A DNA stretch of 64,000 nucleotides from Gammaproteobacteria bacterium. Lineage in GTDB: Bacteria > Pseudomonadota > Gammaproteobacteria > Eutrophobiales > Eutrophobiaceae. Positions 8,951-44,363 of this stretch are shown here, one piece after another. Position numbers and translations under genes: made by a program. The stretch lies in contig JACPSH010000015.1 in the NCBI GenBank assembly GCA_016193395.1, forward strand, positions 37,858 to 101,857, given 5' to 3'. The notes beneath the pieces are model-generated. The model made no database searches and was not told the DNA's origin. It saw only the letters and a program-made list of their open reading frames with translations. Numbering within the stretch: the first letter of the stretch is position 1; each line of letters starts with the position of its first letter.

Positions 8951-8994
8951 GCGGGAATTGCACAAGATCATTGCGGGACGGTATAGCAGCAGCT

Positions 8995-9040
8995 TGATGC
9001 AAAAGTCCGACCATGGACTTTTGCATCACGCTGTTAGCAT
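8995..9040. repeat. 45-bp palindromic motif, copy 1 (overlaps the stop codon of the ADP-forming ACS gene)
   Basis: GATGCAAAAGTCCGACCATGGACTTTTGCATCACGCTGTTAGC has an 11-bp stem, TGCAAAAGTCC/GGACTTTTGCA. Confidence 0.75.
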
Positions 9041-11358
9041 TTGCTTTTCACGATCAGCGCATCCAGCGCCAGTACTCCGCTCGCACCCGCCCGCAACGGA
9101 TTGATATCCAACTCCTGGATCACCGGCTGCTCAACCAGCAGGCGCGAGATCGCGAGCAACGCCCGGATGATCGCTTGCTTGTCGACCGGCGGGCTGCCGC
9201 GCCAGCCATCCAGCAGGACCCGTGCCTTCAGCTCGGTGAGCATTTCCGCCGCATCCGCCTCGTCGAGCGGCACCAGCCGCATCGTGACGTCTTTCAGCGC
9301 TTCCGCCTGGGTACCCCCCATGCCGAGCAGTACCGCCGGACCGAATACCGGATCGCGAAGCCCGCCGACGATAAGATCGAGACCGGCGTTCGCCATCTTT
9401 TCGATCAGGTACGCGCGTTCGCGCAAAGGCGGGATCGCGTCGATCCGGCCGAGCGCCGCGGCGAGTTGATCGGCATCGCGAATGTTCAGATGGACGCCTC
9501 CCATTTCCGTCTTATGCAGTATGTCCACGTCCAGTACTTTGATCACGACCGGTTTCCGCAATCGCGCGAACGCGGCGCGCGCTTTCTCGTGGCCAAGGCA
9601 AACCGCGGATTCTGGCACCGGGATACCGATGGCGCGCAACAGGTCCTTGCCCTGCGCCTCGTTCAGCGCGCCGGCAGGCAGCGATGGCATCGCGGCGGTC
9701 TGGGTTATGGCGTCATCCCGGCGTTGTTTACGGTACCGGCATCGCGCGTCGTCGACGACCGCGCGCATCGCGCGGGCGGCCCGCTCGGGAGACCGGAACG
9801 GCACGACGCCCAGTTCGGCGAGCTGCCGCGCGGTCATGCGCATATCGTTATCCTCGCCGGCGGTACCGTAGATGACGGGTTTTGTGAGTCGTGCCTGCCG
9901 TTCCTTGAATAGCGCAATCGGATCCAGCACGGTCGGTTCGTGCAGGACGAATATCAGGATGGCGTCGATGCCTTCCTCTGCGGCGATAATGTCGAGCACG
10001 TTCCCGAATTCCGGCGTCGGCCGGCCGGCGTCGACCGGGTTGTTGATGTAGTGCATCGGCGGCAGCTCGCGCGCGATCCGGGCAATGCCGTCGGCGCTGA
10101 GTTTCGGCACGTCGACGCCGATGGACTTCAACTGATCCAGCATCAGCAGCCCCGCGCCGGCCTGGCCGATCAGAACGCCGACGCCCGGCGCCGGTTTGGG
10201 CGGCAGCCGGATCAGCGAGAGCGCGCTCGCGGCGTCAACCAGATCGTTCGAATTTTCCGCGATGACCGCGCCGGCCTGCCGGAAGGCCGCGACTTTCAGG
10301 TCGTAGGATCCGACCAGATTGCCGGTATGCGACTGCGCGAAGGCGCCGATTTCGTTGCGCCCGATCGTCAATGCCACGACCGGTTTCCGATCCGTCGCGC
10401 GCCGGATCGATTCGAACAGCCGGCGTCCGTCGCGGAATCCCTCCAGGTACAGCGCAATCACGCGCGTGTGCTCGTCGTCGGCGAGGTAATCGATGACGTC
10501 CGCCGCGTCGACATCAACCGCGTTGCCGAGGCCGACCGTCAGGCTGACGCCGAAACCGTCATTCTCCAGCATGCAAGCCAGGATCAGGCTCATGCCGCCG
10601 CTTTGCGACACAACCGCGATGGGCCCGGGTCCTAACTTCTGGTAGGACACCGAGAAACTCGCGACGAGCCGTTGCGGCGGGGCGGCATATCCGCCGGTAT
10701 TCGGCCCCAACATGCGGATCCCCGTCTTCCGGCAGATGTCCGCCAACCTGTCCTGCAGGCGTTGCCCTTCCTCGCCACTTTCGCCGAAGCCGCCGCCCAT
10801 GATGATGGCGGCGCCGGCCTGGATCGACGCGGCCTCCTGCAACAGATCCGGGCACGCCGCGGCCGGCACGGCGAACAACACCAGATCGACCGGCACGCCG
10901 ATCGCGGTCAACGACGGATACACGGGATGGCCGAGGATCGTCGTCTCCCGCGGATTGACCGGGTAGATCGCGCCGGCATAACTCTCCAGCAGCTGGACCG
11001 CCATATAGCCGGCTTTCCCCGGCGTCGCAGAGGCGCCGACAATCGCGATCGAGCGTGGCCGGAAAAGGCATTCGAGACCGTCTTTTTTCGTCATGACGCG
11101 GCTAGGATAATCGAAACCGGAGCGGCGGCGGGCGCGAGTGGAGCGGTCGATTGCCTCGTGGGCGATGTTGACCCCGCCGGACGGCAGTCCCTCGAGCTGC
11201 AAACGCGCATCCGTCCAGGAGAACTCTCGGCATGTCTGCGAGTAGTCATCCGGGTTCGGCACCACCTTCAGCGCCGCGGCAGTCTTGCGGATGGGATCCC
11301 AGACCATTGATTTCGTTTCCAGATTCGCAAGGACTATCACCGAAGGCAGGCACACCAT
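9034..11358 (-). CDS. Acetate--CoA ligase (ADP-forming) family acyl-CoA synthetase (fused alpha/beta; CoA-binding + ATP-grasp)
   Basis: The sequence ...CLFRPRSIAIVGASATPGKAGYMAV... is a CoA-binding domain and ...VIKVLDVDILHKTEMGGVHLNI... is an ATP-grasp domain. The architecture is typical of NDP-forming ACS. The start is uncertain: an in-frame Met at 11094 (MTKKDG...) precedes the first conserved domain, and the 88 residues upstream resemble an ANL-ligase N-terminus (see findings). Confidence 0.8.
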   Translation of the reverse strand: MVCLPSVIVLANLETKSMVWDPIRKTAAALKVVPNPDDYSQTCREFSWTDARLQLEGLPSGGVNIAHEAIDRSTRARRRSGFDYPSRVMTKKDGLECLFRPRSIAIVGASATPGKAGYMAVQLLESYAGAIYPVNPRETTILGHPVYPSLTAIGVPVDLVLFAVPAAACPDLLQEAASIQAGAAIIMGGGFGESGEEGQRLQDRLADICRKTGIRMLGPNTGGYAAPPQRLVASFSVSYQKLGPGPIAVVSQSGGMSLILACMLENDGFGVSLTVGLGNAVDVDAADVIDYLADDEHTRVIALYLEGFRDGRRLFESIRRATDRKPVVALTIGRNEIGAFAQSHTGNLVGSYDLKVAAFRQAGAVIAENSNDLVDAASALSLIRLPPKPAPGVGVLIGQAGAGLLMLDQLKSIGVDVPKLSADGIARIARELPPMHYINNPVDAGRPTPEFGNVLDIIAAEEGIDAILIFVLHEPTVLDPIALFKERQARLTKPVIYGTAGEDNDMRMTARQLAELGVVPFRSPERAARAMRAVVDDARCRYRKQRRDDAITQTAAMPSLPAGALNEAQGKDLLRAIGIPVPESAVCLGHEKARAAFARLRKPVVIKVLDVDILHKTEMGGVHLNIRDADQLAAALGRIDAIPPLRERAYLIEKMANAGLDLIVGGLRDPVFGPAVLLGMGGTQAEALKDVTMRLVPLDEADAAEMLTELKARVLLDGWRGSPPVDKQAIIRALLAISRLLVEQPVIQELDINPLRAGASGVLALDALIVKSKC

Positions 11359-11374: not shown

Positions 11375-11574
11375 AATGCGGTTCCGAACCCGGTGCGGGA
11401 AACGCCCATTAATGCCTAAATGACGGCACCGCAACCTTAACAGGGTGATGTAAAACCCCGTTTAGCGTCACCCTGCGGCTTCCTGCGGACGGAACGCATC
11501 GCGTATTGAATACCTAAGTGTTTGATATGCGGAGCGAGGCCGAAGCTGAGTTTTGGCCGGAGCGAGATGTAAAA

Positions 11575-11617
11575 GTCCACGGATGGACTTTTGCATAAAC
11601 TTGTTAAGGGGGAAATC
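11575..11617. repeat. 45-bp palindromic motif, copy 2 (between the ACS 5' region and the PRTase gene)
   Basis: GATGTAAAAGTCCACGGATGGACTTTTGCATAAACTTGTTAAG matches copy 1 at ~36/43 positions, including the tail ...GCAT(C/A)A(C/A)C(G/T)TGTTA. Confidence 0.75.
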
Positions 11618-11633
11618 CGCGAGACAATATCAC

Positions 11634-12323
11634 ATGCGTGCCTGGCGTATTTTCTCGGATCGCATAGAGGCCGGACAGGATCTGGCAAAGGCGCTGGCCG
11701 TACACCGCGGCCGACCGGACGTGGTCGTGCTCGGACTGCCCCGGGGCGGCGTGCCGGTGGCGTTCGAGGTAGCCCGCTTTCTGGGGGCGCCGCTGGATGT
11801 ACTGATTGTGCGCAAGCTCGGTGTACCCGGGCATACCGAACTCGCCATGGGGGCCATCGCCACGGGCGGCATCCGCCTGCTGAACGACGAGGTCATCCAG
11901 GCACTGCAGATCCCGATGGAACAGATTGACCGGGTCGCCGCGCAGGAGCAGCGCGAAATGTCGCGGCGCGAAATGGCCTACCGCGGCGACCGGCCGCCGC
12001 TGGACCTGCGTGGCCATGTCACCATCGTCGTGGACGACGGCATGGCCACGGGTTCCACCATGCGCGCGGCCGTGCAGGCCCTGCAGCGGCGCAACGCGTC
12101 GAAGATCGTCGTCGCCGTTCCCCATGCGCCCGCCGACACGGTCGGAGAGTTGCGCGCGATGGGCGCGGAAGTGGTGTGCCTGGAAATGCCCGAGCCCTAT
12201 TTTTCCGTTGGATCGTGGTATCGGGAGTTTCCGCAGGTCGACGATGCCGAGGTCAGAAATCTCATGAAGAAGGCCGGGCGGCGGGCGTTGAAGAGCGGGA
12301 GAGCAGCCGGCGGGCAAACTTAG
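11634..12323 (+). CDS. Phosphoribosyltransferase family protein
   Basis: Translation: MRAWRIFSDRIEAGQDLA...VVLGLPRGGVPVAFEVARFLGAPLDVLIVRKLG...TIVVDDGMATGSTMRAA... The PRTase PRPP-binding motif VVDDGxATGST is present. Confidence 0.7.
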   Translation: MRAWRIFSDRIEAGQDLAKALAVHRGRPDVVVLGLPRGGVPVAFEVARFLGAPLDVLIVRKLGVPGHTELAMGAIATGGIRLLNDEVIQALQIPMEQIDRVAAQEQREMSRREMAYRGDRPPLDLRGHVTIVVDDGMATGSTMRAAVQALQRRNASKIVVAVPHAPADTVGELRAMGAEVVCLEMPEPYFSVGSWYREFPQVDDAEVRNLMKKAGRRALKSGRAAGGQT

Positions 12324-15472: not shown

Positions 15473-15482
15473 GGAAGCTCTT

Positions 15483-15530
15483 TCCTTCATTTTCCAATCG
15501 CTTACGCGACTGGAAAATGGCCATACGTCC
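15483..15530. repeat. Related inverted repeat CCATTTTCCAATCGC-ttac-GCGACTGGAAAATGG followed by a second hairpin; terminator-like, between the CBS gene and the convergent kinase-like gene
   Basis: It is nearly identical in pattern to hairpin 3 of the 33826 cluster (CATTTTTCAATCGC...GCGATTGAAAAATG). A second hairpin, CCATAC-gtccat-GTATGG, follows. Confidence 0.6.
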
Positions 15531-15655
15531 ATGTATGGCGGCCGGCGCTCACACTGCGTCGCCGCCGGCGAAACGCCCCTGCCCTCTTCATTGCAATGCC
15601 GGTCACGGCGCATTCCTTTTGATGACGACGCGGACTGAAAGCCGTCCGATCCGCG

Positions 15656-18640: not shown

Positions 18641-18676
18641 ATGAATCCGGCCGGACCGCCCGTTGCGAGGGACTAA
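18641..18676. repeat. Stand-alone copy of the 'tail' module ATGAATCCGGCCGGACCGCCCGTTGCGAGGGACT between archease and rtcB
   Basis: It is near-identical to 39466-39500. It is preceded by a degenerate GC-rich stretch (18560-18640) and followed by an AT-rich TTGAAAAA element. Confidence 0.7.
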
Positions 18677-18679
18677 CAG

Positions 18680-18755
18680 GTTGTTGAAAAATGGCGGCGC
18701 ATCCTGCACCGCTTTATCAGGCCGTTGAAAAGGCTTTTTCAACAGCCTGCTAACG
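18680..18755. repeat. AT-rich 'TTGAAAAA' element (family copy)
   Basis: GTTGAAAAATGGCGGCGCATCCTGCACCGCTTTATCAGGCCGTTGAAAAGGCTTTTTCAACAGCCTGCTA. It is homologous to 33926-33990 (...ATTGAAAAATGCCGGTACATCCCTGCACCG...CGAAAAACGCTGTTTTTCAACAGCCTGCTA). Confidence 0.75.
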
Positions 18756-20299: not shown

Positions 20300-20480
20300 C
20301 CTCACGAACGCCAGGATCCGGGCGGGCGGGTTCTGTCATCGGACGCACCTGTCCGTGCTCGCTCCGGTCCCCTCCGCTTGCGCGCGGAGCAGGTGCGCCC
20401 GATGCCACCCGCCCGGTTTACGTGTCGGGGCGCGACAGGTGAACACGAAGGCGGTACCCGGCGACAGGACCCGTCCGCCC
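20300..20480. repeat. GC-rich imperfect-palindromic extragenic element (family copy, ~1.5 units) between rtcB and polX
   Basis: ...CCGTGCTCGCTCCGGTCCCCTCCGCTTGCGCGCGGAGCAGGTGCGCCCGATGCCACCCGCCCGG... followed by ...ACGAAGGCGGTACCCGGCGACAGGACCCGTCCG. It is homologous to the copies at 25195, 33727, 34022 and 39356. Confidence 0.75.
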
Positions 20481-25178: not shown

Positions 25179-25194
25179 GTCGAAGAGCGGCGAT

Positions 25195-25315
25195 TGACGG
25201 ACGGGTGGCACCGGGGACTCCTGTTCCGCGCGCAGCGAGAGGGCCTCTCCAGCGGCTGGTTCAAGCGAGCACGGACAGGAGTGCCCGGTGACAGGACCCG
25301 TCCGCTGACCCGCGT
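25195..25315. repeat. GC-rich imperfect-palindromic extragenic element between convergent glgP and malQ
   Basis: GGACGGGTGGCACCGGGGACTCCTGTTCCGCGCGCAGCGAGAGG...GAGCACGGACAGGAGTGCCCGGTGACAGGACCCGTCCG. The outer arms are reverse complements (GGACGGGTGGCACCGGG / CCCGGTGACAGGACCCGTCC). Confidence 0.8.
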
Positions 25316-26757
25316 CAGCATCGCCCGTACAAACCGTTGAGGTGCCGGAGCCAGCCGCCGAGTTCGGGTCTGATCAGGTTCCAATCCAGGCAGTACTTCC
25401 AGTTGCCATCCACCGTGCCGGGCGTGTTGGTCCGGTGCGCGGCCCCGAGCACCAGCAGGTCCTGCATCGGCAGGATTGCAAATCGACACACGGAACCCAG
25501 CGCGGCGTTGATCAGCGGCCACGGCATCGGCTCGGGCGGCTGGCGCAGATAGTCCATCACTTTCATCTTTTGCCCTGTATCGAGCGCTTCATACCACCCG
25601 ACGGTCGTGTTGTTGTCGTGCGTGCCGGTATACACGACGGCCTCCGGCTCGAGGTTGTGCGGCAGGTACGGGTTGCTCGCGTCGCCGTCGAAGGCGAACT
25701 GCAGCACCTTGACGCCCGGCAACCGGAATTTCTTGCGCAGCTTCTCCACAGGCGGCGTGATGATCCCGAGGTCCTCGGCGATGCACGGCAGGGGCCCCAG
25801 CGACTTTCGCAGGGTACGAAGCAGCGCTTCTCCCGGCACCGGCCGCCACTCCCCACGCTGCGCGGTCGGGCAGTCCGCCGGAATTTCCCAGAGAGCTTCC
25901 AGTCCGCGGAAATGATCGATGCGGACGATGTCGAAGAGTTGCAGCTGCCGGTGCATGCGCTCAACCCACCACTGGAACCCCTGTTCCCGCAGGCGACCCC
26001 AGTGATAAACGGGGTTGCCCCAGCGCTGGCCGGTCGAGGAGAAGTAATCCGGCGGCACGCCGGCGACGACCGTCGGTTGTCCGCGCGCATCGAGCTGGAA
26101 ATACTCCGAGTGGGACCAGACGTCTGCGCTGTCATGGGCGACAAACAGGGGCATATCGCCGAAGAGCAGAATGCCGAGCGCCTTGGCGATCGATCGCATT
26201 TCGTTCCACTGGCACGAGAACAGGAATTGCGCGAAACACCACCGTTCGATTGCATCCGCGTGATCCGAATGGAACGCCGCAAGCGCCCCGGCTTTGCGGT
26301 CGCGCAATCCGTCGGGCCAATTCCACCACGGTTGGTTGCCGCAGACGTCCCGGATCGCCATGAACAGGGCATAATCGTTGAGCCAGTATCGTGATTGCTC
26401 CCGAAATGCGGCGAAGCCGGCGCGGTCCTCTGTCCCCGCGCGCGCATTGAACGCGGCCAGAGCGGCGCCCCCGCCTTCACCGCCAAACCAGGCAGTCTGG
26501 GCAAGGCGCTGGCTGCTGATCAGTCCCGGGTGGCCGGCGAACGCGGAGCAACCCTGATAAGGAGAAGAATGGGCATCGACCGGTTGCACGGGCAACAACT
26601 GCCAGATCCTGAAACCGGTATCCGACAGGAATTGCAGGAATCGCCGGGCCGGATCGCCCAGCCCGCCGCCATCGGACGGTACGGCGAGCGCGCTCAGCGG
26701 CAGCAGGATCCCCGCGCGCCGGCGTTCGAACCAGTCTCCGTGCCGTGCGCGACTCAT
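25315..26757 (-). CDS. malQ: 4-alpha-glucanotransferase (amylomaltase, GH77)
   Basis: The N-terminus RRAGILLPLSAL is typical of MalQ. The internal motifs ...GVPPDYFSSTGQRWGNPVYHW... and ...IAEDLGIITPPV... match GH77 catalytic regions. Confidence 0.9.
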   Translation of the reverse strand: MSRARHGDWFERRRAGILLPLSALAVPSDGGGLGDPARRFLQFLSDTGFRIWQLLPVQPVDAHSSPYQGCSAFAGHPGLISSQRLAQTAWFGGEGGGAALAAFNARAGTEDRAGFAAFREQSRYWLNDYALFMAIRDVCGNQPWWNWPDGLRDRKAGALAAFHSDHADAIERWCFAQFLFSCQWNEMRSIAKALGILLFGDMPLFVAHDSADVWSHSEYFQLDARGQPTVVAGVPPDYFSSTGQRWGNPVYHWGRLREQGFQWWVERMHRQLQLFDIVRIDHFRGLEALWEIPADCPTAQRGEWRPVPGEALLRTLRKSLGPLPCIAEDLGIITPPVEKLRKKFRLPGVKVLQFAFDGDASNPYLPHNLEPEAVVYTGTHDNNTTVGWYEALDTGQKMKVMDYLRQPPEPMPWPLINAALGSVCRFAILPMQDLLVLGAAHRTNTPGTVDGNWKYCLDWNLIRPELGGWLRHLNGLYGRC

Positions 26758-32236: not shown

Positions 32237-33688
32237 ATGGCCGCAGCGGAGGTCTTCCCGCTTGTCAAGATCGGCGGGCTGGCGGATGCCTCCGCCTCTC
32301 TCTCCCGCGCGCTGCACGAAATGGGCCTGGACGTGCGTGTCGTGCTCCCGGGCTACCGGCAGGTCATCAAGGCCCTGCCCGCCGCCCGATCCGCCGGGGA
32401 CGTCCGCGGCATCGCCGCGCCCGGGACGAGCCGCATCCTCGAGGCCGTTCTCCCCGACAGCCACGTGCCAGTCTATGTCATCGATCTTCCGTCCTTGTTC
32501 GACCGTGACGGCAGCGCATACCAGGACACCGCGGGCCGGGACTGGCCTGACAACGCGCAGCGCTTCGGGGCTTACTGCCGCGCCATCGAGGGGATCTGTC
32601 TCGGAACCGCGGGGCTCGACTGGACGCCCGAGGCCGTGCATTGCAACGACTGGCACACGGGCCTGGTACCGGCGCTGCTTTCGCTGCACGCGCCCCGTCC
32701 CCCGAGCGTATTCACCATCCACAATCTGGCTTACCAGGGCAATTTTCCGCAGGGCGCTTTCCGGGCGCTCCGGCTGCCGGATGCGCTCTGGACGCCCGGG
32801 GGCATCGAGTTCCACGGCATGATGTCGTTTATCAAGGGCGGGCTCGCCTACGCCGACTTCCTGACGACGGTGAGCCCGACCCACGCCGTGGAGATCACCG
32901 GCCCCGGCCTGGGCTTCGGCCTCGATGGCCTGCTCCGCTTCCGGCGCGGCGCGCTCAGCGGGATATTGAACGGCGTGGATTACCGGACATGGGATCCGCG
33001 GAAAGACCCGCACATCGCGCGCGGTTTCTGGACCCACCGCCTGGACGGCAAGGAATCCTGCAAGCTCGCCCTGCAAGCGCAGGCGGGACTGCGGGAGGAC
33101 GCGGCGGCGATCGTGCTCGCGCTCATCGCACGCTTCACCTATCAGAAGGGCGTCGATCTCGTGCTCGCCATCCTCGGTGATCTGCTCGCCGAACCGGACC
33201 TGCAGCTGGTCGTGCTCGGCGCGGGCGACACGGGTTTGAAGGCCGCCATGCACGCCGCGGCACACGCTCATCCCGGACGCGTTGCGGCGCACGTCAGCCA
33301 TGATGAGGCCCTTGCGCACCGCATCGTGGCCGGCGCGGACATGCTGCTCATGCCGTCCCGATACGAGCCCTGCGGATTGACCCAGCTTTATGCGCTCCGC
33401 TACGGCACGGTTCCGGTCGTGCACCGCACGGGCGGACTGGCCGATACGATCGTCGACGTCACGGATCGCACCGTCGCCGATCAGACGGCGACGGGTTTCC
33501 AGTTCGCGCGCGCCGAGCCGGGACAGCTGCTCGACACCGTGCGACGCGCCGCCCGGCTGCGACGCCACGATCCCGGACTCTGGCGGCGGATCATGCGCAC
33601 CGGCATGCGTCGGGATTTCAGTTGGGCGGCAAGCGCCGCGCGTTATGCGGAGCTGTACGCGCAGTTGCTGCCGCTGCGACAGCTCTGA
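32237..33688 (+). CDS. glgA: Glycogen synthase (ADP-glucose type, GT5)
   Basis: ...AAEVFPLVKIGGLADA... matches the GlgA N-terminal KxGGL motif. The C-terminal ...MPSRYEPCGLTQLYALRYGTVPVVHRTGGLADT... is also conserved. The ATG at 32237 was chosen, but a slightly upstream non-ATG start is possible. Confidence 0.85.
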   Translation: MAAAEVFPLVKIGGLADASASLSRALHEMGLDVRVVLPGYRQVIKALPAARSAGDVRGIAAPGTSRILEAVLPDSHVPVYVIDLPSLFDRDGSAYQDTAGRDWPDNAQRFGAYCRAIEGICLGTAGLDWTPEAVHCNDWHTGLVPALLSLHAPRPPSVFTIHNLAYQGNFPQGAFRALRLPDALWTPGGIEFHGMMSFIKGGLAYADFLTTVSPTHAVEITGPGLGFGLDGLLRFRRGALSGILNGVDYRTWDPRKDPHIARGFWTHRLDGKESCKLALQAQAGLREDAAAIVLALIARFTYQKGVDLVLAILGDLLAEPDLQLVVLGAGDTGLKAAMHAAAHAHPGRVAAHVSHDEALAHRIVAGADMLLMPSRYEPCGLTQLYALRYGTVPVVHRTGGLADTIVDVTDRTVADQTATGFQFARAEPGQLLDTVRRAARLRRHDPGLWRRIMRTGMRRDFSWAASAARYAELYAQLLPLRQL

Positions 33689-33726
33689 AGCCGGCCGGCT
33701 ACATTTCGAAATGTTGCCGGACGGGT

Positions 33727-33825
33727 CCTGTCACCGGGCGCCCCTTTTCCGTGCTCGTGCGGTCCCCTCACTTGCGCGCGGAAGAAGGGGAGTGCCCGGT
33801 GCCACCCGTCCGTTCGACTCTAGCA
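33727..33825. repeat. GC-rich palindromic extragenic element (opposite orientation) downstream of glgA
   Basis: GGACGGGTCCTGTCACCGGGCGCCCC...CCGTGCTCGTGCGGTCCCCTCACTTGCGCGCGGAAGAAGGGGAGTGCCCGGTGCCACCCGTCCG. It equals the reverse-complement orientation of the 39356 copy. Confidence 0.8.
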
Positions 33826-33995
33826 TGATGTTGAAAAACGATTTCCATATCGTTTTTCAACTCGCAAAGCAAAAATGCGATTTCCGCTTTGCTCCATTTT
33901 TCAATCGCTTGCCGCGATTGAAAAATGCCGGTACATCCCTGCACCGGGCGCAGGCTGTCGAAAAACGCTGTTTTTCAACAGCCTGCTAGAGCGTG
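33826..33995. repeat. Cluster of four AT-rich hairpins carrying the TTGAAAAA motif (composite element)
   Basis: Hairpin 1 is GTTGAAAAACGAT-ttccat-ATCGTTTTTCAAC (perfect). Hairpin 2 is GCAAAGC...GCTTTGC. Hairpin 3 is CATTTTTCAATCGC-ttgcc-GCGATTGAAAAATG (perfect). Hairpin 4 is GCAGGCTGTCGAAAAACG/CTGTTTTTCAACAGCCTGC. The region is much lower in GC than its surroundings. Confidence 0.8.
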
Positions 33996-34021
33996 AATCC
34001 GACCGGATTCAGGCATAGGTG

Positions 34022-34140
34022 CTGACCGGGCGGGTGACATCGGGTCACCGCTCTTCGCGCGCAGCGTAAGCGAGCACGAAGACGGTACCCGATGGCAGGA
34101 CCCGGCCGCGCTGAAGCGGGAATGAATCCGGCCGGACCTT
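34022..34140. repeat. GC-rich palindromic element plus 'ATGAATCCGGCCGGACC' tail module
   Basis: GACCGGGCGGGTGACATCGGGTCACCGCTCTTCGCGCGCAGCGTAAGCGAGCACGAAGACGGTACCCGATGGCAGGACCCGGCCG is followed by GGGAATGAATCCGGCCGGACCTTGCACTACTGA. Confidence 0.7.
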
Positions 34141-34174
34141 GCACTACTGATACGGCGAGCGGGGCAGGAAGCGG

Positions 34175-34726
34175 TCAGGGCAGGCGCGAGATGAACTCCG
34201 CGGGGGGCTTGCGCAGGGTCGCGGGGATCTCGGCGGGTATCCCATACCAGAAAATGCCGACGACGCGCTCCCTGGCGGGATCGATGCGCGTGATCTCGAA
34301 AAAGCGCGGATCGCGTATGACTTCCCCGGTCGTCCATTTGACGCCGATGCCGCGGTCCCAGAGAAAGAGCATCATGTTCTGGGCCGCGCAGCAACACGCC
34401 GCATAGTCCTCCCAGCACCGCACTTCATCGGCCTCCCGCTGGCAGGTCAGCAACAGCCAGCCCGGGATGGCGCGCCAGCGCCGCAGTTTCATCTCCGCGG
34501 CCCGTTCGCCCTTGCCGGCCCTCACCCGTTCCGCGTTGAGCAGGCATATGGCTTCCACAGTTTCCGGTCCCAGCAGGTAAAAGCGCCACGGTTGCGTGAG
34601 GTAATGGTTTGGCGCCCACGACGCGTGCGCGATCGCATCCAGGATGACGACCTGCGGCGGCGCCCCGGGCCGGAACTCGTGGATGGTCCGGCGGCCGCGG
34701 ATCGTGTCAGCGATGGTTGCAATCAT
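34175..34726 (-). CDS. Nitroreductase-family protein
   Basis: MIATIADTIRGRRTIHEFRPGAPP... is the nitroreductase N-terminal (R/S)xR pattern. The length is ~183 aa. Confidence 0.7.
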   Translation of the reverse strand: MIATIADTIRGRRTIHEFRPGAPPQVVILDAIAHASWAPNHYLTQPWRFYLLGPETVEAICLLNAERVRAGKGERAAEMKLRRWRAIPGWLLLTCQREADEVRCWEDYAACCCAAQNMMLFLWDRGIGVKWTTGEVIRDPRFFEITRIDPARERVVGIFWYGIPAEIPATLRKPPAEFISRLP

Positions 34727-39160: not shown

Positions 39161-39355
39161 CCGGCCGCTGGGACGTCTTGGCCGGGCTTATTCCGCTTTC
39201 GCTTCGCGAATCATTCCTGATTCGCTCGCGGCTAGCGCAGCGCACTTCACCGTCCTGGCTGCGTGCGCTGCTTAAGCCGCTCCACAAGCCCGGCCAAGCC
39301 GTCTTTACGCGGCCAGACTTCAGCAACGGTACGGCCGGATTCACGTGCAGGAGAT

Positions 39356-39500
39356 AAACGGACGGGTGGCGCCGGGCACTCCCCTGTTCCGCGCGCAAGC
39401 GAGGGGACCGAGCGAGCACGGACAGGGGTGCCCGGTGACAGGACCCGGCCGCCCACCAACGCAAACATGATTCCGGCCGGACCGCCCGTTACGTGGGACT
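39356..39500. repeat. GC-rich palindromic element plus tail module in the rph/yicC divergent region
   Basis: GGACGGGTGGCGCCGGGCACTCCCCTGTTCCGCGCGCAAGCGAGGGGACCGAGCGAGCACGGACAGGGGTGCCCGGTGACAGGACCCGGCCG is followed by the tail CATGATTCCGGCCGGACCGCCCGTTACGTGGGACTC. Confidence 0.8.
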
Positions 39501-41579: not shown

Positions 41580-43700
41580 ATGAGCGCGACGATCTCCGAT
41601 CTGGAACGCCAGGTCAGCGCCTACCTTCAGCCGGACGAGGTTGAGAAGGTGTTGCGCGCCTACGATTTCGGCGCCAAGGCCCACGAAGGCCAGCACCGGG
41701 TCAGCGGCGAGCCGTACATCCACCATCCGCTGGAAGTGGCGCAGATCCTGGCGGGCATGCACATGGATCACCAGACCCTGATCGCGGCGATCCTGCACGA
41801 TGTCATCGAAGACACCGAGACTGCGAAGCTCGAGATCCAGCGCAAATTCGGCAAGGGCGTCGCGGACCTCGTCGACGGCGTCAGCAAGCTGACCCAAATC
41901 AAGTTCGACTCGCACGCAGAGGCGCAGGCGCAGAACTTCCGCAAGATGCTCATGGCCATGAGCAACGACATCCGCGTGATCCTGGTCAAGCTCGCGGACC
42001 GCGTGCACAACATGCGTACGCTGCGGGCGCTCCCCTCGGAAAAACGGCGGCGCATCGCCCGCGAGACGCTGGAAATCTACGCGCCCATCGCGCAGCGCCT
42101 CGGGATCAATTCGATCCGGCTCGAGCTCGAGGAGCTCGGCTTCGCCACGCTCTATCCGATGCGCTACCGCGTCCTGTCCGAGGAGGTCAGAAAGGCCCGT
42201 GGGCACCGCAAGGAGATCGTCAACCGCATCCGCACCGCCCTCAAGCGGCGGCTGCGGCAGGATAAGGTGCACGCGCAGGTCATCGGGCGCGAGAAGCACC
42301 TGTACGGCATTTATCAGAAGATGATCAGCAAGCGACTGTCCTTCGCCGAGGTGTACGACGTCTACGCGTTCCGCATCATCGTCGACAACGTCGATACCTG
42401 CTACCGCGCCGTGGGCACGGTGCACAACCTGTACAAGCCCGTGCCCGGCAAGTTCAAGGATTACATCGCCATTCCCAAGTCGAACGGCTACCAGGCGCTG
42501 CATACCGTGCTGTTCGGCCCGTTTGGAGTTCCCATCGAGGTCCAGATCCGCAGCCGCGACATGAACGATGTCGCCGAGGCCGGGATCGCCGCTCACTGGC
42601 TGTACAAGTCGGGAAGCGCCAGTGAGCGCAGCGGCGCTCACAAGCGGGCGCGTGAGTGGCTGCGCAGCATCATGGAAATGCAGACCACCGCCGGCAACCC
42701 GCAGGAATTCCTGGAGAACGTGAAAATCGACCTGTTCCCCGAATCCGTCTACGTCTTCACGCCGAAGGGAAAGATCATCGAGTTGCCGCGCAATGCCACC
42801 GCGGTGGATTTCGCGTATGCAATCCACACGGACGTCGGCAACGGCTGCGTGGGCGCGCGCATCAACCGCCGCCTCGCCCCCTTGGGCACGCGGCTTGCGA
42901 CCGGGCAAACAGTCGAGATCGTGACCGCCCCGGGCGCGCATCCCAATCCGGCGTGGCTGAATTTCGCCGTCACCGCCAAGGCCCGGTCCAACATCCGGCA
43001 CTACCTCAAGCACCTGCAGCAAAGGGAGGCCGCGGCGCTCGGCAAGCGGCTGCTGAACCGCGAGTTGCAGATGCACTCGACGGCCTACGACGAGGTGGAT
43101 CGGGACCAGCTGCGCAGGGTGCTCGAGGAATACCATCTCAAGGGCGAGGAAGAGCTGCTGCAGGACGTGGGGCTCGGGAACCGCATGGCGCCGATCATCG
43201 CGCGGCAGCTCCTCGGGCAATGGACCGCGGTCCCGCATGCGAAACCGAACGGAGGGGACGCACAGCCCCTGCTGATTAAGGGTACCGAAGGGCTCGTGAT
43301 TAACTTTCCGAAATGCTGCCGTCCCATTCCCGGCGATCCGATCCTCGGTTTCATGACCGCCGGCCGTGGCATTGTGGTGCACCACCAGTCCTGCCCGAAC
43401 GTCCGCGAATACCGCAATCATCCGGACAAGTGGGTCAACGTCGAATGGGAATCGGATATCCAGGGCAGCTTCCCGACCAACATCCGCCTAGACGTCACCA
43501 ACCAGCGCGGTGTACTGGCGAAGATCGCCGCCGAGATCGCGGACCAGGAGGCGAACATCGTCAACGTGGAGATGCAGGATCGTGACGACCGGTACACGAC
43601 CCTCAAGTTCACGATCGAGGTCCAGGATAGGCAGCACCTCGCCCGCGTCATGCGCCGCATACGCGGGCTCAAGCACGTCTCGCGGATCTCGCGCAGGTAG
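41580..43700 (+). CDS. spoT: Bifunctional (p)ppGpp synthetase/hydrolase (RelA/SpoT homologue)
   Basis: The HD hydrolase domain (HPLEVAQILAGMHMD, ILHDVIEDT) and the synthetase domain (YQALHTVLFGPFGVPIEVQIRS) are present. The TGS and ACT C-terminal regions are also present. The gmk-rpoZ-spoT order matches E. coli. Confidence 0.9.
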   Translation: MSATISDLERQVSAYLQPDEVEKVLRAYDFGAKAHEGQHRVSGEPYIHHPLEVAQILAGMHMDHQTLIAAILHDVIEDTETAKLEIQRKFGKGVADLVDGVSKLTQIKFDSHAEAQAQNFRKMLMAMSNDIRVILVKLADRVHNMRTLRALPSEKRRRIARETLEIYAPIAQRLGINSIRLELEELGFATLYPMRYRVLSEEVRKARGHRKEIVNRIRTALKRRLRQDKVHAQVIGREKHLYGIYQKMISKRLSFAEVYDVYAFRIIVDNVDTCYRAVGTVHNLYKPVPGKFKDYIAIPKSNGYQALHTVLFGPFGVPIEVQIRSRDMNDVAEAGIAAHWLYKSGSASERSGAHKRAREWLRSIMEMQTTAGNPQEFLENVKIDLFPESVYVFTPKGKIIELPRNATAVDFAYAIHTDVGNGCVGARINRRLAPLGTRLATGQTVEIVTAPGAHPNPAWLNFAVTAKARSNIRHYLKHLQQREAAALGKRLLNRELQMHSTAYDEVDRDQLRRVLEEYHLKGEEELLQDVGLGNRMAPIIARQLLGQWTAVPHAKPNGGDAQPLLIKGTEGLVINFPKCCRPIPGDPILGFMTAGRGIVVHHQSCPNVREYRNHPDKWVNVEWESDIQGSFPTNIRLDVTNQRGVLAKIAAEIADQEANIVNVEMQDRDDRYTTLKFTIEVQDRQHLARVMRRIRGLKHVSRISRR

Positions 43701-43709
43701 TCGCGCCCG

Positions 43710-43983
43710 GCAGACAATTGCTCCTGCGATTTCTGCATTTCCGCCATCCCTGGCGGTCATCCCTGGCGGCCATCCCGGGCGGTCATCCCGGGCGGTCGCA
43801 GAAAATTGCTCCTGCATTTTCTGCATTTCCGCCGTCCCTGGCGGTCATCCCGGGCGGTCATCCCTGGCGGTCATCCCGGGCGGTCGCAGAAAATTGCTCC
43901 TGCATTTTCTGCATTCCCGCCATCCCTGGCGGTCGCAGAAAATTGCTCCTGCATTTTCTGCATTCCCGCCATCCCTGGCGGTC
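43710..43983 (+). repeat. Nested tandem-repeat array: four 36-bp units, each followed by 4, 4, 1 and 1 copies of a 13-bp sub-repeat
   Basis: The 36-mer is GCAGA(A/C)AATTGCTCCTGC(G/A)TTTTCTGCATT(T/C)CCGCC. The 13-mer is ATCCC(T/G)GGCGG(T/C)C. The units start at 43710, 43798, 43886 and 43935. The 36-mer contains a 9-bp-stem hairpin, GCAGAAAAT/ATTTTCTGC. The array fills the gap between the spoT stop (43700) and the ridA core. Confidence 0.9.
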
Positions 43984-44363
43984 GGAAAATCATCTCGACC
44001 GACGCGGCGCCCCACGCGATCGGGACCTACTCGCAGGCGGTCCAGGTCGGCAATACCGTTTACCTCTCCGGGCAGATCCCGCTCGACCCCGCGACCATGC
44101 GACTCGTCACCGGCGATGTGCGCGGCCAGATCGACCAGGTATTCCGGAACCTCGCCGCGTTGGCTGGAGCCGCGGGCGGCAGCCTGGCGGATGTCGTCAA
44201 GCTGAATGTCTACCTCACCGATCTCGAATATTTCCCGCTGGTCAATGAGGTCATGGAGCAATACTTCCGGAAGCCCTATCCGGCACGCGCCGCGGTCGGC
44301 GTCGCCGAATTGCCGAAAGGGGCACTGGTCGAGATCGAAGGCATCCTGATGCTGGAGTCCTGA
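43806..44363 (+). CDS. ridA: RidA (YjgF/TdcF) family reactive-intermediate deaminase. The 5' end and start codon are uncertain because the gene abuts a tandem-repeat array.
   Basis: The conserved core [35 protein letters not shown]...[17 protein letters not shown] starts at ~43986. No ATG, GTG or TTG codon occurs at the expected position. The only in-frame upstream start-like codon (TTG at 43806) lies inside the repeat array. Confidence 0.65.

What the first reader, a model, noticed from the sequence alone, without database searches (positions are those of the whole stretch)
33826..33995. AT-rich 'TTGAAAAA' hairpin cluster and related elements forming composite loci with the GC-rich repeats
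A 170-bp island that is markedly AT-rich for this genome contains four consecutive hairpins, two of them perfect. All are built on the TTGAAAAA / TTTTTCAA motif. A 75-bp homologue lies at 18680-18755, with the shared end ...TTTTTCAACAGCCTGCTA. A related inverted repeat lies at 15483-15530.

At two loci the AT-rich module directly abuts the GC-rich palindromic family or its tail module. This suggests a composite mobile or regulatory element. It could also be a small structured RNA gene, a cluster of binding sites for a nucleoid protein (IHF, Fis or H-NS type), or a set of transcription terminators.
Basis: seen in the sequence. Interest (0 to 1): 0.55.

Follow-up and report, generated by a model that had tools for sequence, protein, structure and literature searches.

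The report
Miniature IS5-type transposon, hairpin-rich
The AT-rich hairpin cluster is a 162-bp non-coding "hitch-hiker" transposon (a MITE) carrying the end sequences of IS5-family insertion sequences; it landed between two convergent genes and belongs to a large, strongly structured but apparently undescribed family, so it is an ordinary kind of thing with some interesting family features.

Summary
Window 33824-33985 is a discrete 162-bp element (46% G+C against 64% for the window) that folds into five consecutive hairpins, not four.

It has terminal inverted repeats, CATGATGTTGAAAAA and TTTTTCAACAGCCTG, and is flanked by a 4-bp direct repeat, CTAG/CTAG. The same ends bound full-length 1.25-1.5 kb IS5-family insertion sequences in at least eight other genomes. 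Across 144 small elements the flanks are mostly identical Py-T-A-Pu tetramers, which is the IS5 target signature.

It is therefore a MITE. The 18680-18755 "homologue" is a 73-bp internal-deletion derivative flanked by CTAA/CTAA. 15483-15530 is a relic that has no ends. Two further copies lie at 11441-11603 and 8987-9033.

Relatives in Gammaproteobacteria form a canonical family of 151-153 nt. All 56 base pairs show compensatory change. There is no strand asymmetry and no orientation bias, which argues against a strand-specific RNA gene.

Flanks of other copies are unrelated, so the "composite" with the GC-rich repeats is co-accumulation, not one unit. The orthologous spacer is 44 bp in the nearest relative.

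This is a known kind of element and a new family member. Central IHF-like and loop TCC/GGA motifs are untested leads.

The parts
33820..33823 (.). Left target-site duplication, CTAG, of element el1
   Evidence: Identical CTAG on both sides. CTAG is rare in the window, 16 seen against about 212 expected.
33824..33985 (+). el1: a 162-bp MITE of the five-hairpin family
   Evidence: The covariance model built from 42 relatives scores 106.9 bits, E about 1e-27, over the full model. It is 79% identical over 170 nt to L075 and 76% to L089.
33824..33838 (+). Left terminal inverted repeat, CATGATGTTGAAAAA (family consensus CAGGNTGTTGAAAAA; G3 is T in this copy)
33830..33861 (.). Hairpin H1 (13/13 pairs). 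It pairs the inner part of the left repeat with an internal TTTTTCAAC. The loop is TTCCAT.
33864..33892 (.). Hairpin H2
   Evidence: Helix 2 is 78% paired across the family, and all 11 pairs show double changes.
33895..33927 (.). Hairpin H3 (14/14 pairs). TTTCAATCGCTTG at 33899-33911 is one mismatch from the IHF consensus and sits at the centre of the element.
33928..33947 (.). Hairpin H4, with the conserved loop CATCCCTG (TCCN in 81 of 100 family members). On the minus strand the scan calls it terminator-like.
33950..33986 (.). Hairpin H5. An internal partial copy of the left repeat (GCAGGCTGTCGAAAAAC) pairs with the right terminal repeat.
33971..33985 (+). Right terminal inverted repeat, TTTTTCAACAGCCTG
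33986..33989 (.). Right target-site duplication, CTAG
18673..18753 (+). el2: a 73-bp internal-deletion derivative (18677-18749) flanked by the direct repeat CTAA/CTAA. The left repeat is fused at TTGAAAAATG to the 3' arm of H3, followed by H4 and H5.
   Evidence: The same short form occurs in L218 and L138.
11437..11607 (-). el3: a 163-bp full-length divergent member (11441-11603) with variant ends CAAGTTTATGCAAAA / CAGGGTGATGTAAAA, flanked by TTAA/TTAA. It has an exact IHF consensus at its centre.
   Evidence: Covariance model 41 bits, E about 1e-9. IHF match at 11527, minus strand.
8983..9037 (+). el4: a 47-bp mini-element (8987-9033, H1 only) with ends of the el3 type. The flanks are ATAG and TTAG.
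   Evidence: (family D6).
15473..15540 (+). el5: a relic with H2-like, H3 and H4 modules but no recognisable terminal repeats. It starts right after a TAG stop codon.
   Evidence: 36 bits; only H3/H4 align well.

Best explanation
[quoted passage not shown] It is a 162-bp, non-coding, non-autonomous derivative of IS5-family (IS5-group) insertion sequences.

Shown:
- It carries the roughly 15-bp terminal inverted repeats CAGGNTGTTGAAAAA of that IS clade.
- It is flanked by a 4-bp duplication of a Py-T-A-Pu target (CTAG).
- It belongs to a large family of 151-153-nt elements. Their copies sit at unrelated sites, each with its own duplication.

Inferred:
- It was inserted by cut-and-paste by a DDE transposase (DUF772 + DDE_Tnp_1) supplied in trans by a full-length IS elsewhere in the genome. 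No such IS lies in this window.
- This copy is probably old. Its left repeat carries a G-to-T change, and the copies in the window are diverged from one another.

Interior:
- The interior is five local hairpins whose pairing is conserved through compensatory change equally on both strands.
- The hairpins are most likely a property selected at the level of the element or of its tolerability. That could be a compact foldable or bendable body between the ends, or bidirectional hairpins that are harmless at gene 3' ends. They are unlikely to be a host RNA gene.

Setting:
- Py-T-A-Pu sites are very rare in this GC-rich genome and coincide with TAA/TAG stop codons. These elements therefore pile up in short spacers at gene ends, next to other repeat families.
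For: Ends and duplication:
- The repeats and the CTAG/CTAG flanks are read directly from the sequence.
- el2 has CTAA/CTAA and el3 has TTAA/TTAA. These are direct, not inverted, repeats, so the tetramer is a duplication and not part of the inverted repeat.

The autonomous relatives:
- The same ends bound full-length ISs of 1236-1523 bp in L024, L073, L093, L054, L118, L026 and L034, and one of about 1539 bp on a Sinorhizobium meliloti plasmid (L125) with CTAA/CTAA flanks.
- Their ORFs are DUF772 + DDE_Tnp_1 and match NCBIfam NF033581, IS5 family transposase, at 241-256 bits against a cut-off of 140. The plasmid records annotate them as IS5 family transposase.

Target signature:
- Of 144 small end-pairs, 83 have identical 4-bp flanks: CTAG 44, CTAA 18, TTAG 17, TTAA 1.
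- This matches the published IS5 target Py-T-A-Pu, in which CTAG is the commonest (PMC5493358).

Copy number and spread:
The base after it is G or A in 115 of 125 occurrences.
- Near-identical copies lie at many different sites of one assembly, each with its own flanks (JRYH01 and DAITQM01 contigs).

Boundaries and coding:
- Flanks are unrelated between copies.
- The two ORFs that overlap the island have no Pfam hit.

Orthologous site:
- In the nearest relative (GlgA 68% identical, same glgA/nitroreductase/kinase order) the spacer is 44 bp, against 486 bp here. In a second relative the spacer after glgA is 26 bp.

Structure:
- 90.4% of cells are paired, against 69.6% in shuffles and about 40% with slid partners. 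All 56 pairs show double changes.
Against: - No IS5-family transposase gene lies in the 64-kb window (tblastn), and the rest of the genome could not be searched. A partner in this organism is therefore inferred, not shown.
- No precise empty site was found. An exact-match scan for the predicted junction in metagenomes gave 0 hits.
- The relative's spacer holds a different mini-element rather than a clean empty site.
- Simple trans-mobilisation needs only the terminal repeats. It does not by itself explain the strict length and hairpin conservation or the conserved TCC loops of the interior.
- The left repeat of el1 departs from the consensus, so this copy may no longer be mobile.
Confidence: 0.9

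Rival explanations
1. Exapted transcription terminator or mRNA-end protector. The hairpins stop or stabilise the transcripts of the convergent glgA and nitroreductase genes. This is a secondary function layered on the MITE, not an alternative origin.
For: - The element lies between convergent genes.
- Across the family, convergent settings (13) outnumber divergent ones (5).
- In this copy the scan calls two terminator-like sites on the minus strand, the nitroreductase direction: H4 followed by CATTTTTCAA, and the inner part of H5. A homologous site is called in L075.
- In canonical members H1 reads A5, G+C stem, T5, which is the shape of a bidirectional terminator.
- SPRITE is a precedent for a terminator-like MITE (PMC10969869).
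Against: - The scan calls nothing in the canonical copy L057 and nothing on the plus strand here.
- H1 of el1 has an A+T-rich stem.
- Relatives manage with 26-44-bp spacers.
- There are no transcript data.
Confidence: 0.2
2. Binding platform for a DNA-bending nucleoid protein of the IHF type at the centre of the element. The protein either helps bring the two ends together for transposition or influences local DNA architecture.
For: - An exact WATCAANNNNTTR is present in 16 of 66 full-length members. It is always on the same strand and at relative position 0.496 +/- 0.008.
- 29 of 66 have at most one mismatch at that position. Shuffles give a hit in 12 of 3300.
- el3 is exact, and el1 has one mismatch at 33899-33911, its exact centre (all).
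- Family length is strictly kept at 151-153 bp.
- From my own knowledge, Correia elements and RIP/BIME-1 carry IHF sites.
Against: - Most lineages, including large ones such as the L057 type and the A+T-rich type, lack an exact match.
- The consensus is degenerate, and the motif overlaps a conserved stem, so its conservation may be structural.
- No binding data exist.
- A dsDNA site does not explain conservation of the hairpins.
Confidence: 0.2
3. A small structured RNA. In particular, the minus-strand transcript could act as a Csr/Rsm-type protein sponge or as a CsrA-binding 3' UTR, because its hairpin loops display GGA.
For: - Minus strands carry on average 3.6 GGA (2.1 of them unpaired), against 1.2 (0.3 unpaired) on plus strands.
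- Loop motifs read CAGGAUG, CACGGAUG and CAGGGAUG. From my own knowledge this is close to the CsrA/RsmE consensus CANGGAYG.
- The H4 loop is TCCN in 81 of 100 members.
- The fold is very stable.
Against: - No Rfam match and no promoter-like site.
- G.U cells (119) equal A.C cells (120) in the stems, so there is no strand-specific RNA signature.
- There is no co-orientation with flanking genes: (+,+) 10 against (-,-) 13.
- The element is not conserved at the orthologous locus.
Confidence: 0.06
4. One composite mobile unit made of the AT-rich module plus the GC-rich palindromic repeats.
For: - el1 lies between two head-to-head GC-rich units (33689-33812 and 33998-34150).
- el2 abuts the GC-rich tail module at 18641-18674.
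- One copy in another organism (L078) is followed by a similar TCCGGCCGG motif, and the two L089 copies share their right flank.
Against: - In about 80 other copies the flanks are unrelated and similarity ends at the duplicated tetramer.
- GC-rich units occur without the AT-rich element at 25189-25321 and 39350-39500.
- el1 has its own CTAG duplication, lying outside both GC-rich units.
Confidence: 0.04
5. Incidental AT-rich spacer with chance palindromes.
For: None beyond its intergenic position.
Against: - Motif counts are far above shuffles.
- Homologues exist in many genomes.
- The covariance-model match has E about 1e-27.
Confidence: 0.005

Closest known systems
IS5 and the IS5 group of the IS5 family (DDE transposase; 4-bp Py-T-A-Pu target duplication)
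   Same: - The terminal repeats are the same as in full-length IS5-family elements found here.
- The 4-bp duplications have the same spectrum as published for IS5: CTAG most often, then CTAA and TTAG (PMC5493358).
   Different: - No transposase gene: 162 bp against 1.2-1.5 kb.
- From my own knowledge, the ends differ from those of E. coli IS5 itself (GGAAGGTGCGAATAAG).
- The interior shares nothing with the ISs beyond the ends.
MITEAba12 of Acinetobacter (113 bp, mobilised by ISAba12; PMC6382973)
   Same: - Both are non-coding, A+T-rich MITEs whose identity to the presumed parent IS is confined to 15-16-bp terminal repeats.
- The two terminal repeats resemble each other: GGCTTTGTTGCACAAA there, (CA)GGCTGTTGAAAAA here.
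- Element length is tightly conserved in both.
   Different: - The duplication is 9 bp there and 4 bp Py-T-A-Pu here.
- MITEAba12 transposition was observed experimentally; here mobility is inferred.
- The family here has five covarying hairpins and spans many gammaproteobacterial lineages.
Correia elements (NEMIS) of Neisseria
   Same: Both are MITEs of about 100-160 bp with terminal inverted repeats and a duplication containing TA. Both are intergenic and fold into stable hairpins. From my own knowledge, Correia elements also have a central IHF site.
   Different: - The ends are unrelated.
- The duplication is TA there and 4 bp here.
- From my own knowledge, the Correia transposase is unknown, whereas here matching IS5-family ISs are identified.
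- IHF binding is untested here.
SPRITE, BOX and RUP clusters of Streptococcus pneumoniae (PMC10969869)
   Same: Small repeats of different families bunch together in the same spacers and insert next to or into one another. SPRITE has the shape of a terminator.
   Different: The sequence families and the hosts are different, and no terminator activity has been shown here.
REP/BIME elements (RAYT-associated)
   Same: Both are intergenic, palindromic and found at gene 3' ends, with compensatory change keeping the hairpins.
   Different: From my own knowledge, REPs have no terminal inverted repeats or target duplication and are tied to a Y1 (HUH) transposase. This element has both features and matches a DDE-type IS.

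Membership tests
MITE (non-autonomous IS derivative) | Small size (tens to a few hundred bp) and no coding capacity | tested here: met
   The element is 162 bp. The overlapping ORFs 33390-33989 and 33975-34418 have no Pfam hit.
MITE (non-autonomous IS derivative) | Terminal inverted repeats | tested here: met
   CATGATGTTGAAAAA and TTTTTCAACAGCCTG. Read as 18-mers, the left end has 2 mismatches to the right end.
MITE (non-autonomous IS derivative) | Target-site duplication flanking the element | tested here: met
   el1 has CTAG/CTAG, el2 CTAA/CTAA and el3 TTAA/TTAA. Across the family, 83 of 144 pairs have identical flanks.
MITE (non-autonomous IS derivative) | Multiple dispersed copies with unrelated flanks | tested here: met
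   There are five copies or relics in the window. More than 100 relatives lie in other genomes and metagenomes with unrelated flanks.
MITE (non-autonomous IS derivative) | Terminal repeats match those of an autonomous IS | tested here: met
   Eight full-length ISs have the same ends.
MITE (non-autonomous IS derivative) | A matching transposase in the same genome, or observed mobility | not testable with these tools
   There is none in the 64-kb window. The rest of the genome is not available, and the empty-site scan found nothing.
IS5 family, IS5 group (as the mobilising system) | DDE transposase of IS5 type in the elements that carry these ends | tested here: met
   PF05598 and PF01609. NF033581 at 241-256 bits against a cut-off of 140.
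IS5 family, IS5 group (as the mobilising system) | 4-bp duplication of Py-T-A-Pu | tested here: met
   CTAG 44, CTAA 18, TTAG 17, TTAA 1, compared with PMC5493358.
Intrinsic (rho-independent) terminator | G+C-rich stem-loop followed by a T run, placed after a gene | tested here: inconclusive
   Two minus-strand sites are called in el1, one in L075 and none in L057. H1 of el1 is A+T-rich.
Csr/Rsm-type sponge RNA | Several GGA motifs exposed in hairpin loops of one strand | tested here: met
   The minus strand has 3.6 GGA per element, 2.1 of them unpaired, against 1.2 and 0.3 on the plus strand.
Csr/Rsm-type sponge RNA | Own promoter, and strand-specific conservation as an RNA | tested here: not met
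   No promoter-like site. G.U 119 against A.C 120. No orientation bias. No Rfam hit.
IHF-binding repeat (as in Correia elements or RIP) | Match to WATCAANNNNTTR at a fixed place in the element | tested here: inconclusive
   The match is exact in 16 of 66 members, always at the centre. el3 is exact and el1 has one mismatch.
IHF-binding repeat (as in Correia elements or RIP) | Demonstrated IHF binding | not testable with these tools
   This needs a gel-shift or footprint.
REP/BIME | Short imperfect palindromes without terminal repeats or duplication, linked to a RAYT transposase | tested here: not met
   The element has terminal repeats and a 4-bp duplication.

The most novel reading that the evidence does not exclude
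The 151-153-nt five-hairpin family may be more than a passive hitch-hiker. Its architecture is kept by selection on both strands. It carries a central IHF-like site and invariant TCC/GGA hairpin loops. It could therefore be a portable protein-binding or insulating module that IS5-type transposases have spread through Gammaproteobacteria to gene 3' ends. That module could be an IHF-bent transpososome scaffold, a bidirectional terminator, or a set of CsrA-type binding hairpins when transcribed. Hosts may have partly domesticated it: el5 keeps the hairpins but has lost its ends.
Probability: 0.15. Interest if true: 0.55.

Novelty: new member of a known kind. Interest (0 to 1): 0.3.

Why it matters
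For annotation:
- It explains an odd AT-rich island and at least four other small repeats in this window as one MITE superfamily.
- It explains why short-read assemblies of this organism break at these spacers.

For mobile-DNA biology:
- It documents a clade of IS5-family elements whose 15-18-bp end is conserved across many phyla.
- This clade has spawned many unrelated MITE families.
- One of those families has unusually strict length and hairpin conservation, which makes it a good substrate for asking what, beyond the terminal repeats, a MITE needs in order to be mobilised or tolerated.

It does not reveal a new kind of system.

Tried and rejected
- Rfam. The whole window at gathering thresholds gave nothing, and the island at E up to 10 gave only noise. 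Twelve loci holding canonical, Pseudomonas-type and deltaproteobacterial-type elements gave only an unrelated riboswitch and a 5S rRNA.
- First hypothesis of an IS630/Tc1-type element with a TA duplication. I rejected it because CTAA/CTAA, TTAG/TTAG and TTAA/TTAA are 4-bp direct repeats and the full-length elements encode IS5-type, not IS630-type, transposases.
- Integron attC site. I considered it because of the GTTRRRY-like cores. I rejected it because the arm order is wrong in H1 and H5, there are no cassettes, and terminal repeats plus a duplication explain the ends.
- Empty-site scan for CCGTTCGACTCTAGAGCGTGAATCC in metagenomes: 0 hits.
- Paralogous empty site at 39467-39500. It is not informative, because the sequence after the GC-rich tail differs.
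- DNA similarity search of the element against plasmids: no match.
- Literature search for the end sequences: only unrelated primer hits.
- Exact-protein look-up with the TTG-start GlgA ORF failed because the start codon was wrong. It was solved through the homologue search.
- CsrA-sponge idea. I tested it by orientation and by wobble asymmetry, and neither supports it.
- Terminator scan on canonical copies. H1 was not called, because its A and T runs pair with each other.

Full report
**1. Observation**

The island exists as described. In 100-nt windows G+C falls to 0.43-0.48 across 33800-33949, against 0.64 for the window as a whole.

The repeat finder gives a perfect 13-nt inverted repeat at 33830-33842/33849-33861 and a perfect 14-nt one at 33895-33908/33914-33927. 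It also gives a 17-nt, 94% complementary repeat at 33950-33966/33970-33986, and a 13-nt, 85% repeat at 33864-33876/33880-33892.

Folding 33820-33989 gives five consecutive hairpins. As RNA the energy is -77.5 kcal/mol with z = -10.2; as DNA z = -11.0.

The motif-pair patterns occur once each, against zero in 100 shuffles. The shared end TTTTTCAACAGCCTGCTA occurs six times with up to 3 mismatches, against 0.01 expected.

The island lies in a 486-bp spacer between two convergent genes. One is glgA, ending at 33688 on the plus strand. The other is a nitroreductase gene, ending at 34175 on the minus strand.

**2. Anatomy: ends and duplication**

The mismatch search showed that the shared end also occurs in inverted orientation at the left edge of both loci. 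The island therefore has terminal inverted repeats, CATGATGTTGAAAAA at 33824 and TTTTTCAACAGCCTG ending at 33985.

It is flanked by CTAG on both sides, at 33820-23 and 33986-89. The element at 18677-18749 has CAGGTTGTTGAAAAA and TTTTTCAACAGCCTG, and is flanked by CTAA on both sides.

CTAA/CTAA is a direct repeat; the inverted form would be TTAG...CTAA. The tetramer is therefore a target-site duplication and not part of the inverted repeat.

**3. What carries such ends elsewhere**

They come from Pseudomonadota, Nitrospirota, Desulfobacterota, Planctomycetota, Verrucomicrobiota, Acidobacteriota, Ignavibacteriota, Bacteroidota and others.

In every case the 18-mer is the end of something. The next base is G or A in 115 of 125 occurrences.

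In L024 two inverted copies lie 1362 bp apart around a 365-aa ORF with DUF772 and DDE_Tnp_1 domains. A tblastn search with that ORF found homologues next to the 18-mer in L073, L093, L054, L118, L026, L034 and L027.

Seven of these loci show both ends, 1236-1523 bp apart, with CTAG flanks. The proteins reach 241-256 bits against NCBIfam NF033581, IS5 family transposase, whose cut-off is 140.

A 72%-identical copy on a Sinorhizobium meliloti plasmid is annotated as IS5 family transposase. It has the ends CAGGGTGTTGAAAAA and TTCTTCAACAGCCTG with CTAA/CTAA flanks.

Over all loci, 83 of 144 small end-pairs have identical 4-bp flanks: CTAG 44, CTAA 18, TTAG 17, TTAA 1. This is the spectrum published for IS5, consensus Py-T-A-Pu with CTAG commonest (PMC5493358).

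The island is thus a MITE of an IS5-group clade. The window itself holds no homologue of the transposase, so a partner in this genome is inferred, not shown.

**4. The family**

blastn found full-length relatives of el1 in other Gammaproteobacteria: L075 at 79% over 170 nt, two copies in a Sedimenticola MAG (L089), L014 and L039.

Of 131 occurrences, 58 are elements of about 150-159 nt, mostly 151-153 nt. All share one architecture:
- the left repeat;
- H1, of the form A5, stem, T5;
- H2;
- a short linker;
- H3;
- H4;
- H5, in which a partial internal copy of the left repeat pairs with the right repeat.

I built a covariance model from 42 non-redundant members. It scores el1 at 106.9 bits.

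On 100 distinct aligned sequences, 90.4% of cells form standard pairs. The figure is 69.6% when partners are shuffled and about 40% when partners are slid by 1-3 columns. All 56 pairs show changes on both sides, and the covariation score is 0.325 against 0.094. One caveat applies: this alignment was fitted to the model.

The H4 loop is TCCN in 81 of 100 sequences, and H1 loops are mostly xTCCxT.

Near-identical copies lie at many sites of single assemblies, each with its own duplication (JRYH01 and DAITQM01 contigs). That is the signature of recent bursts.

Flanks of about 80 copies are unrelated to one another, so the repeated unit ends at the duplicated tetramer.

**5. Other copies in the window**

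The model also finds the following.
- **el3, 11441-11603 (minus strand).** It scores 41 bits, has variant ends and is flanked by TTAA/TTAA.
- **el4, 8987-9033.** This is a 47-bp mini-element with only H1 and ends of the el3 type.
- **el5, about 15473-15540.** It keeps H2-like, H3 and H4 modules but has no recognisable ends.
- **el2.** This is an internal-deletion derivative. The left repeat is joined at TTGAAAAATG to the 3' arm of H3, followed by H4 and H5. The same short form recurs elsewhere, in L218 and L138.

**6. RNA gene, or structure at the DNA or element level?**

- No Rfam family matches el1 or canonical members.
- No sigma-70-like promoter is called.
- In the stems, G.U cells (119) equal A.C cells (120). 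An RNA read from one strand should show an excess of G.U.
- A crude GC3-based call of flanking genes gives (+,-) 13, (-,-) 13, (+,+) 10 and (-,+) 5. There is no co-orientation with neighbours, only the usual excess of convergent over divergent settings.
- The nearest relative (GlgA 68% identical) has the same glgA, nitroreductase and kinase order, but the spacer is 44 bp.
- That 44-bp spacer is filled by a different, 40-nt mini-element of the el4 type lying exactly between the two stop codons.
- A second relative has a 26-bp spacer.

The 486 bp here therefore consist of lineage-specific insertions, and el1 is not a conserved gene of this locus.

**7. The "composite" with GC-rich repeats**

el1 lies between two complete, head-to-head GC-rich palindromic units. 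It is 7 nt from 33689-33812 (reverse orientation) and 8 nt from 33998-34150. el2 abuts a GC-rich tail at 18641-18674.

GC-rich units occur without the AT-rich element at 25189-25321 and 39350-39500. AT-rich elements elsewhere have unrelated flanks.

CTAG is very rare in the window, 16 seen against about 212 expected from base composition, and two of those 16 are el1's own duplication. All four Py-T-A-Pu tetramers contain TAA or TAG.

That rarity explains why insertions concentrate at gene ends. The flank of el4 contains the stop of ORF 9034-11358, and the flank of el3 contains the stop of ORF 11604-12317. In the relative, the mini-element sits between two stop codons.

Co-accumulation of different small repeats in the same spacers is known (PMC10969869).

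**8. Leads not settled**

- **IHF-like site.** The consensus WATCAANNNNTTR is exact in 16 of 66 full-length members. It is always on the same strand and at relative position 0.496 +/- 0.008. A further 13 have one mismatch there. Shuffles give 0.4%. el3 is exact. el1 has one mismatch at 33899-33911, its centre.
- **GGA loops.** Minus strands expose GGA in hairpin loops, 3.6 per element against 1.2 on plus strands, in contexts that resemble CsrA sites. The strand tests in section 6 do not support an RNA role.
- **Terminators.** Terminator-like sites are called on the minus strand of el1 and L075 but not in L057.

**9. Verdict**

This is a MITE mobilised, now or formerly, by IS5-group transposases. 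The kind of element is known. I found no description of this family or of its end sequence in the searchable literature or in Rfam. The interior's conserved five-hairpin design is the only part that asks for further explanation.

Noticed in passing
window 25189-25321, 39350-39500, 33689-33812, 33998-34150, 20454-20478, 18641-18674: A separate GC-rich palindromic repeat family of about 115-150 nt. Its arms are CGGACGGGTGGCRCCGGG... and ...CCCGGTGACAGGACCCGKCCG, with an optional tail ATGAWTCCGGCCGGACCGCCCGTT. Its nature (REP-like or another MITE) was not determined.
   Followed up: partly
window 43697-43985: A tandem array of 88-nt units. Each unit has a hairpin GCAGAAAATTGCTCCTGCATTTTCTGC followed by 13-nt repeats TCATCCCKGGCGG. 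The hairpin CCGCCATCCCTGGCGG carries the same CATCCNTG loop motif as H4 of the MITE. The covariance model gives only 11 bits here.
   Followed up: no
L248 2133-2180: In the nearest relative, the 44-bp glgA/nitroreductase spacer is filled by a 40-nt mini-MITE, CAAGGTGATGCAAAAGTCC...GGACTTTTGCATCAAACCA. It lies exactly between the TAG stop of glgA and the TAA stop of the nitroreductase gene. The target tetramers coincide with the stop codons.
   Followed up: partly
window 9034-9037 and 11604-11607: The TTAG flank of el4 contains the TAA stop of the 774-aa minus-strand ORF 9034-11358. The TTAA flank of el3 contains the stop of ORF 11604-12317 (minus strand). I did not check whether these ORFs are real genes.
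   Followed up: no
Metagenome loci such as L146, L149, L154, L164, L184, L188: Solo 22-bp palindromes, CAGGCTGTTTTTCAACAGCCTG, flanked by CTAG and with no other module. They may be minimal elements or excision or deletion remnants.
   Followed up: no
L001-L120 (for example L023, L063, L112 in Pseudomonas; L033, L047, L111, L113 in deltaproteobacteria; L010, L025, L050 in Nitrospirota): Several other MITE families with unrelated, lineage-specific interiors share the same 18-mer end. One IS5-family end has seeded many independent MITE families across phyla.
   Followed up: partly
L121-L124, L246-L247: Short-read (Logan) contigs of the same organism end 54 nt after glgA and 95 nt after the nitroreductase stop. 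The assemblies break inside the repeat-filled spacer.
   Followed up: yes
L133, L134, L166, L232: Canonical elements are inserted immediately next to another copy of the same family, giving tandem or nested MITEs.
   Followed up: no
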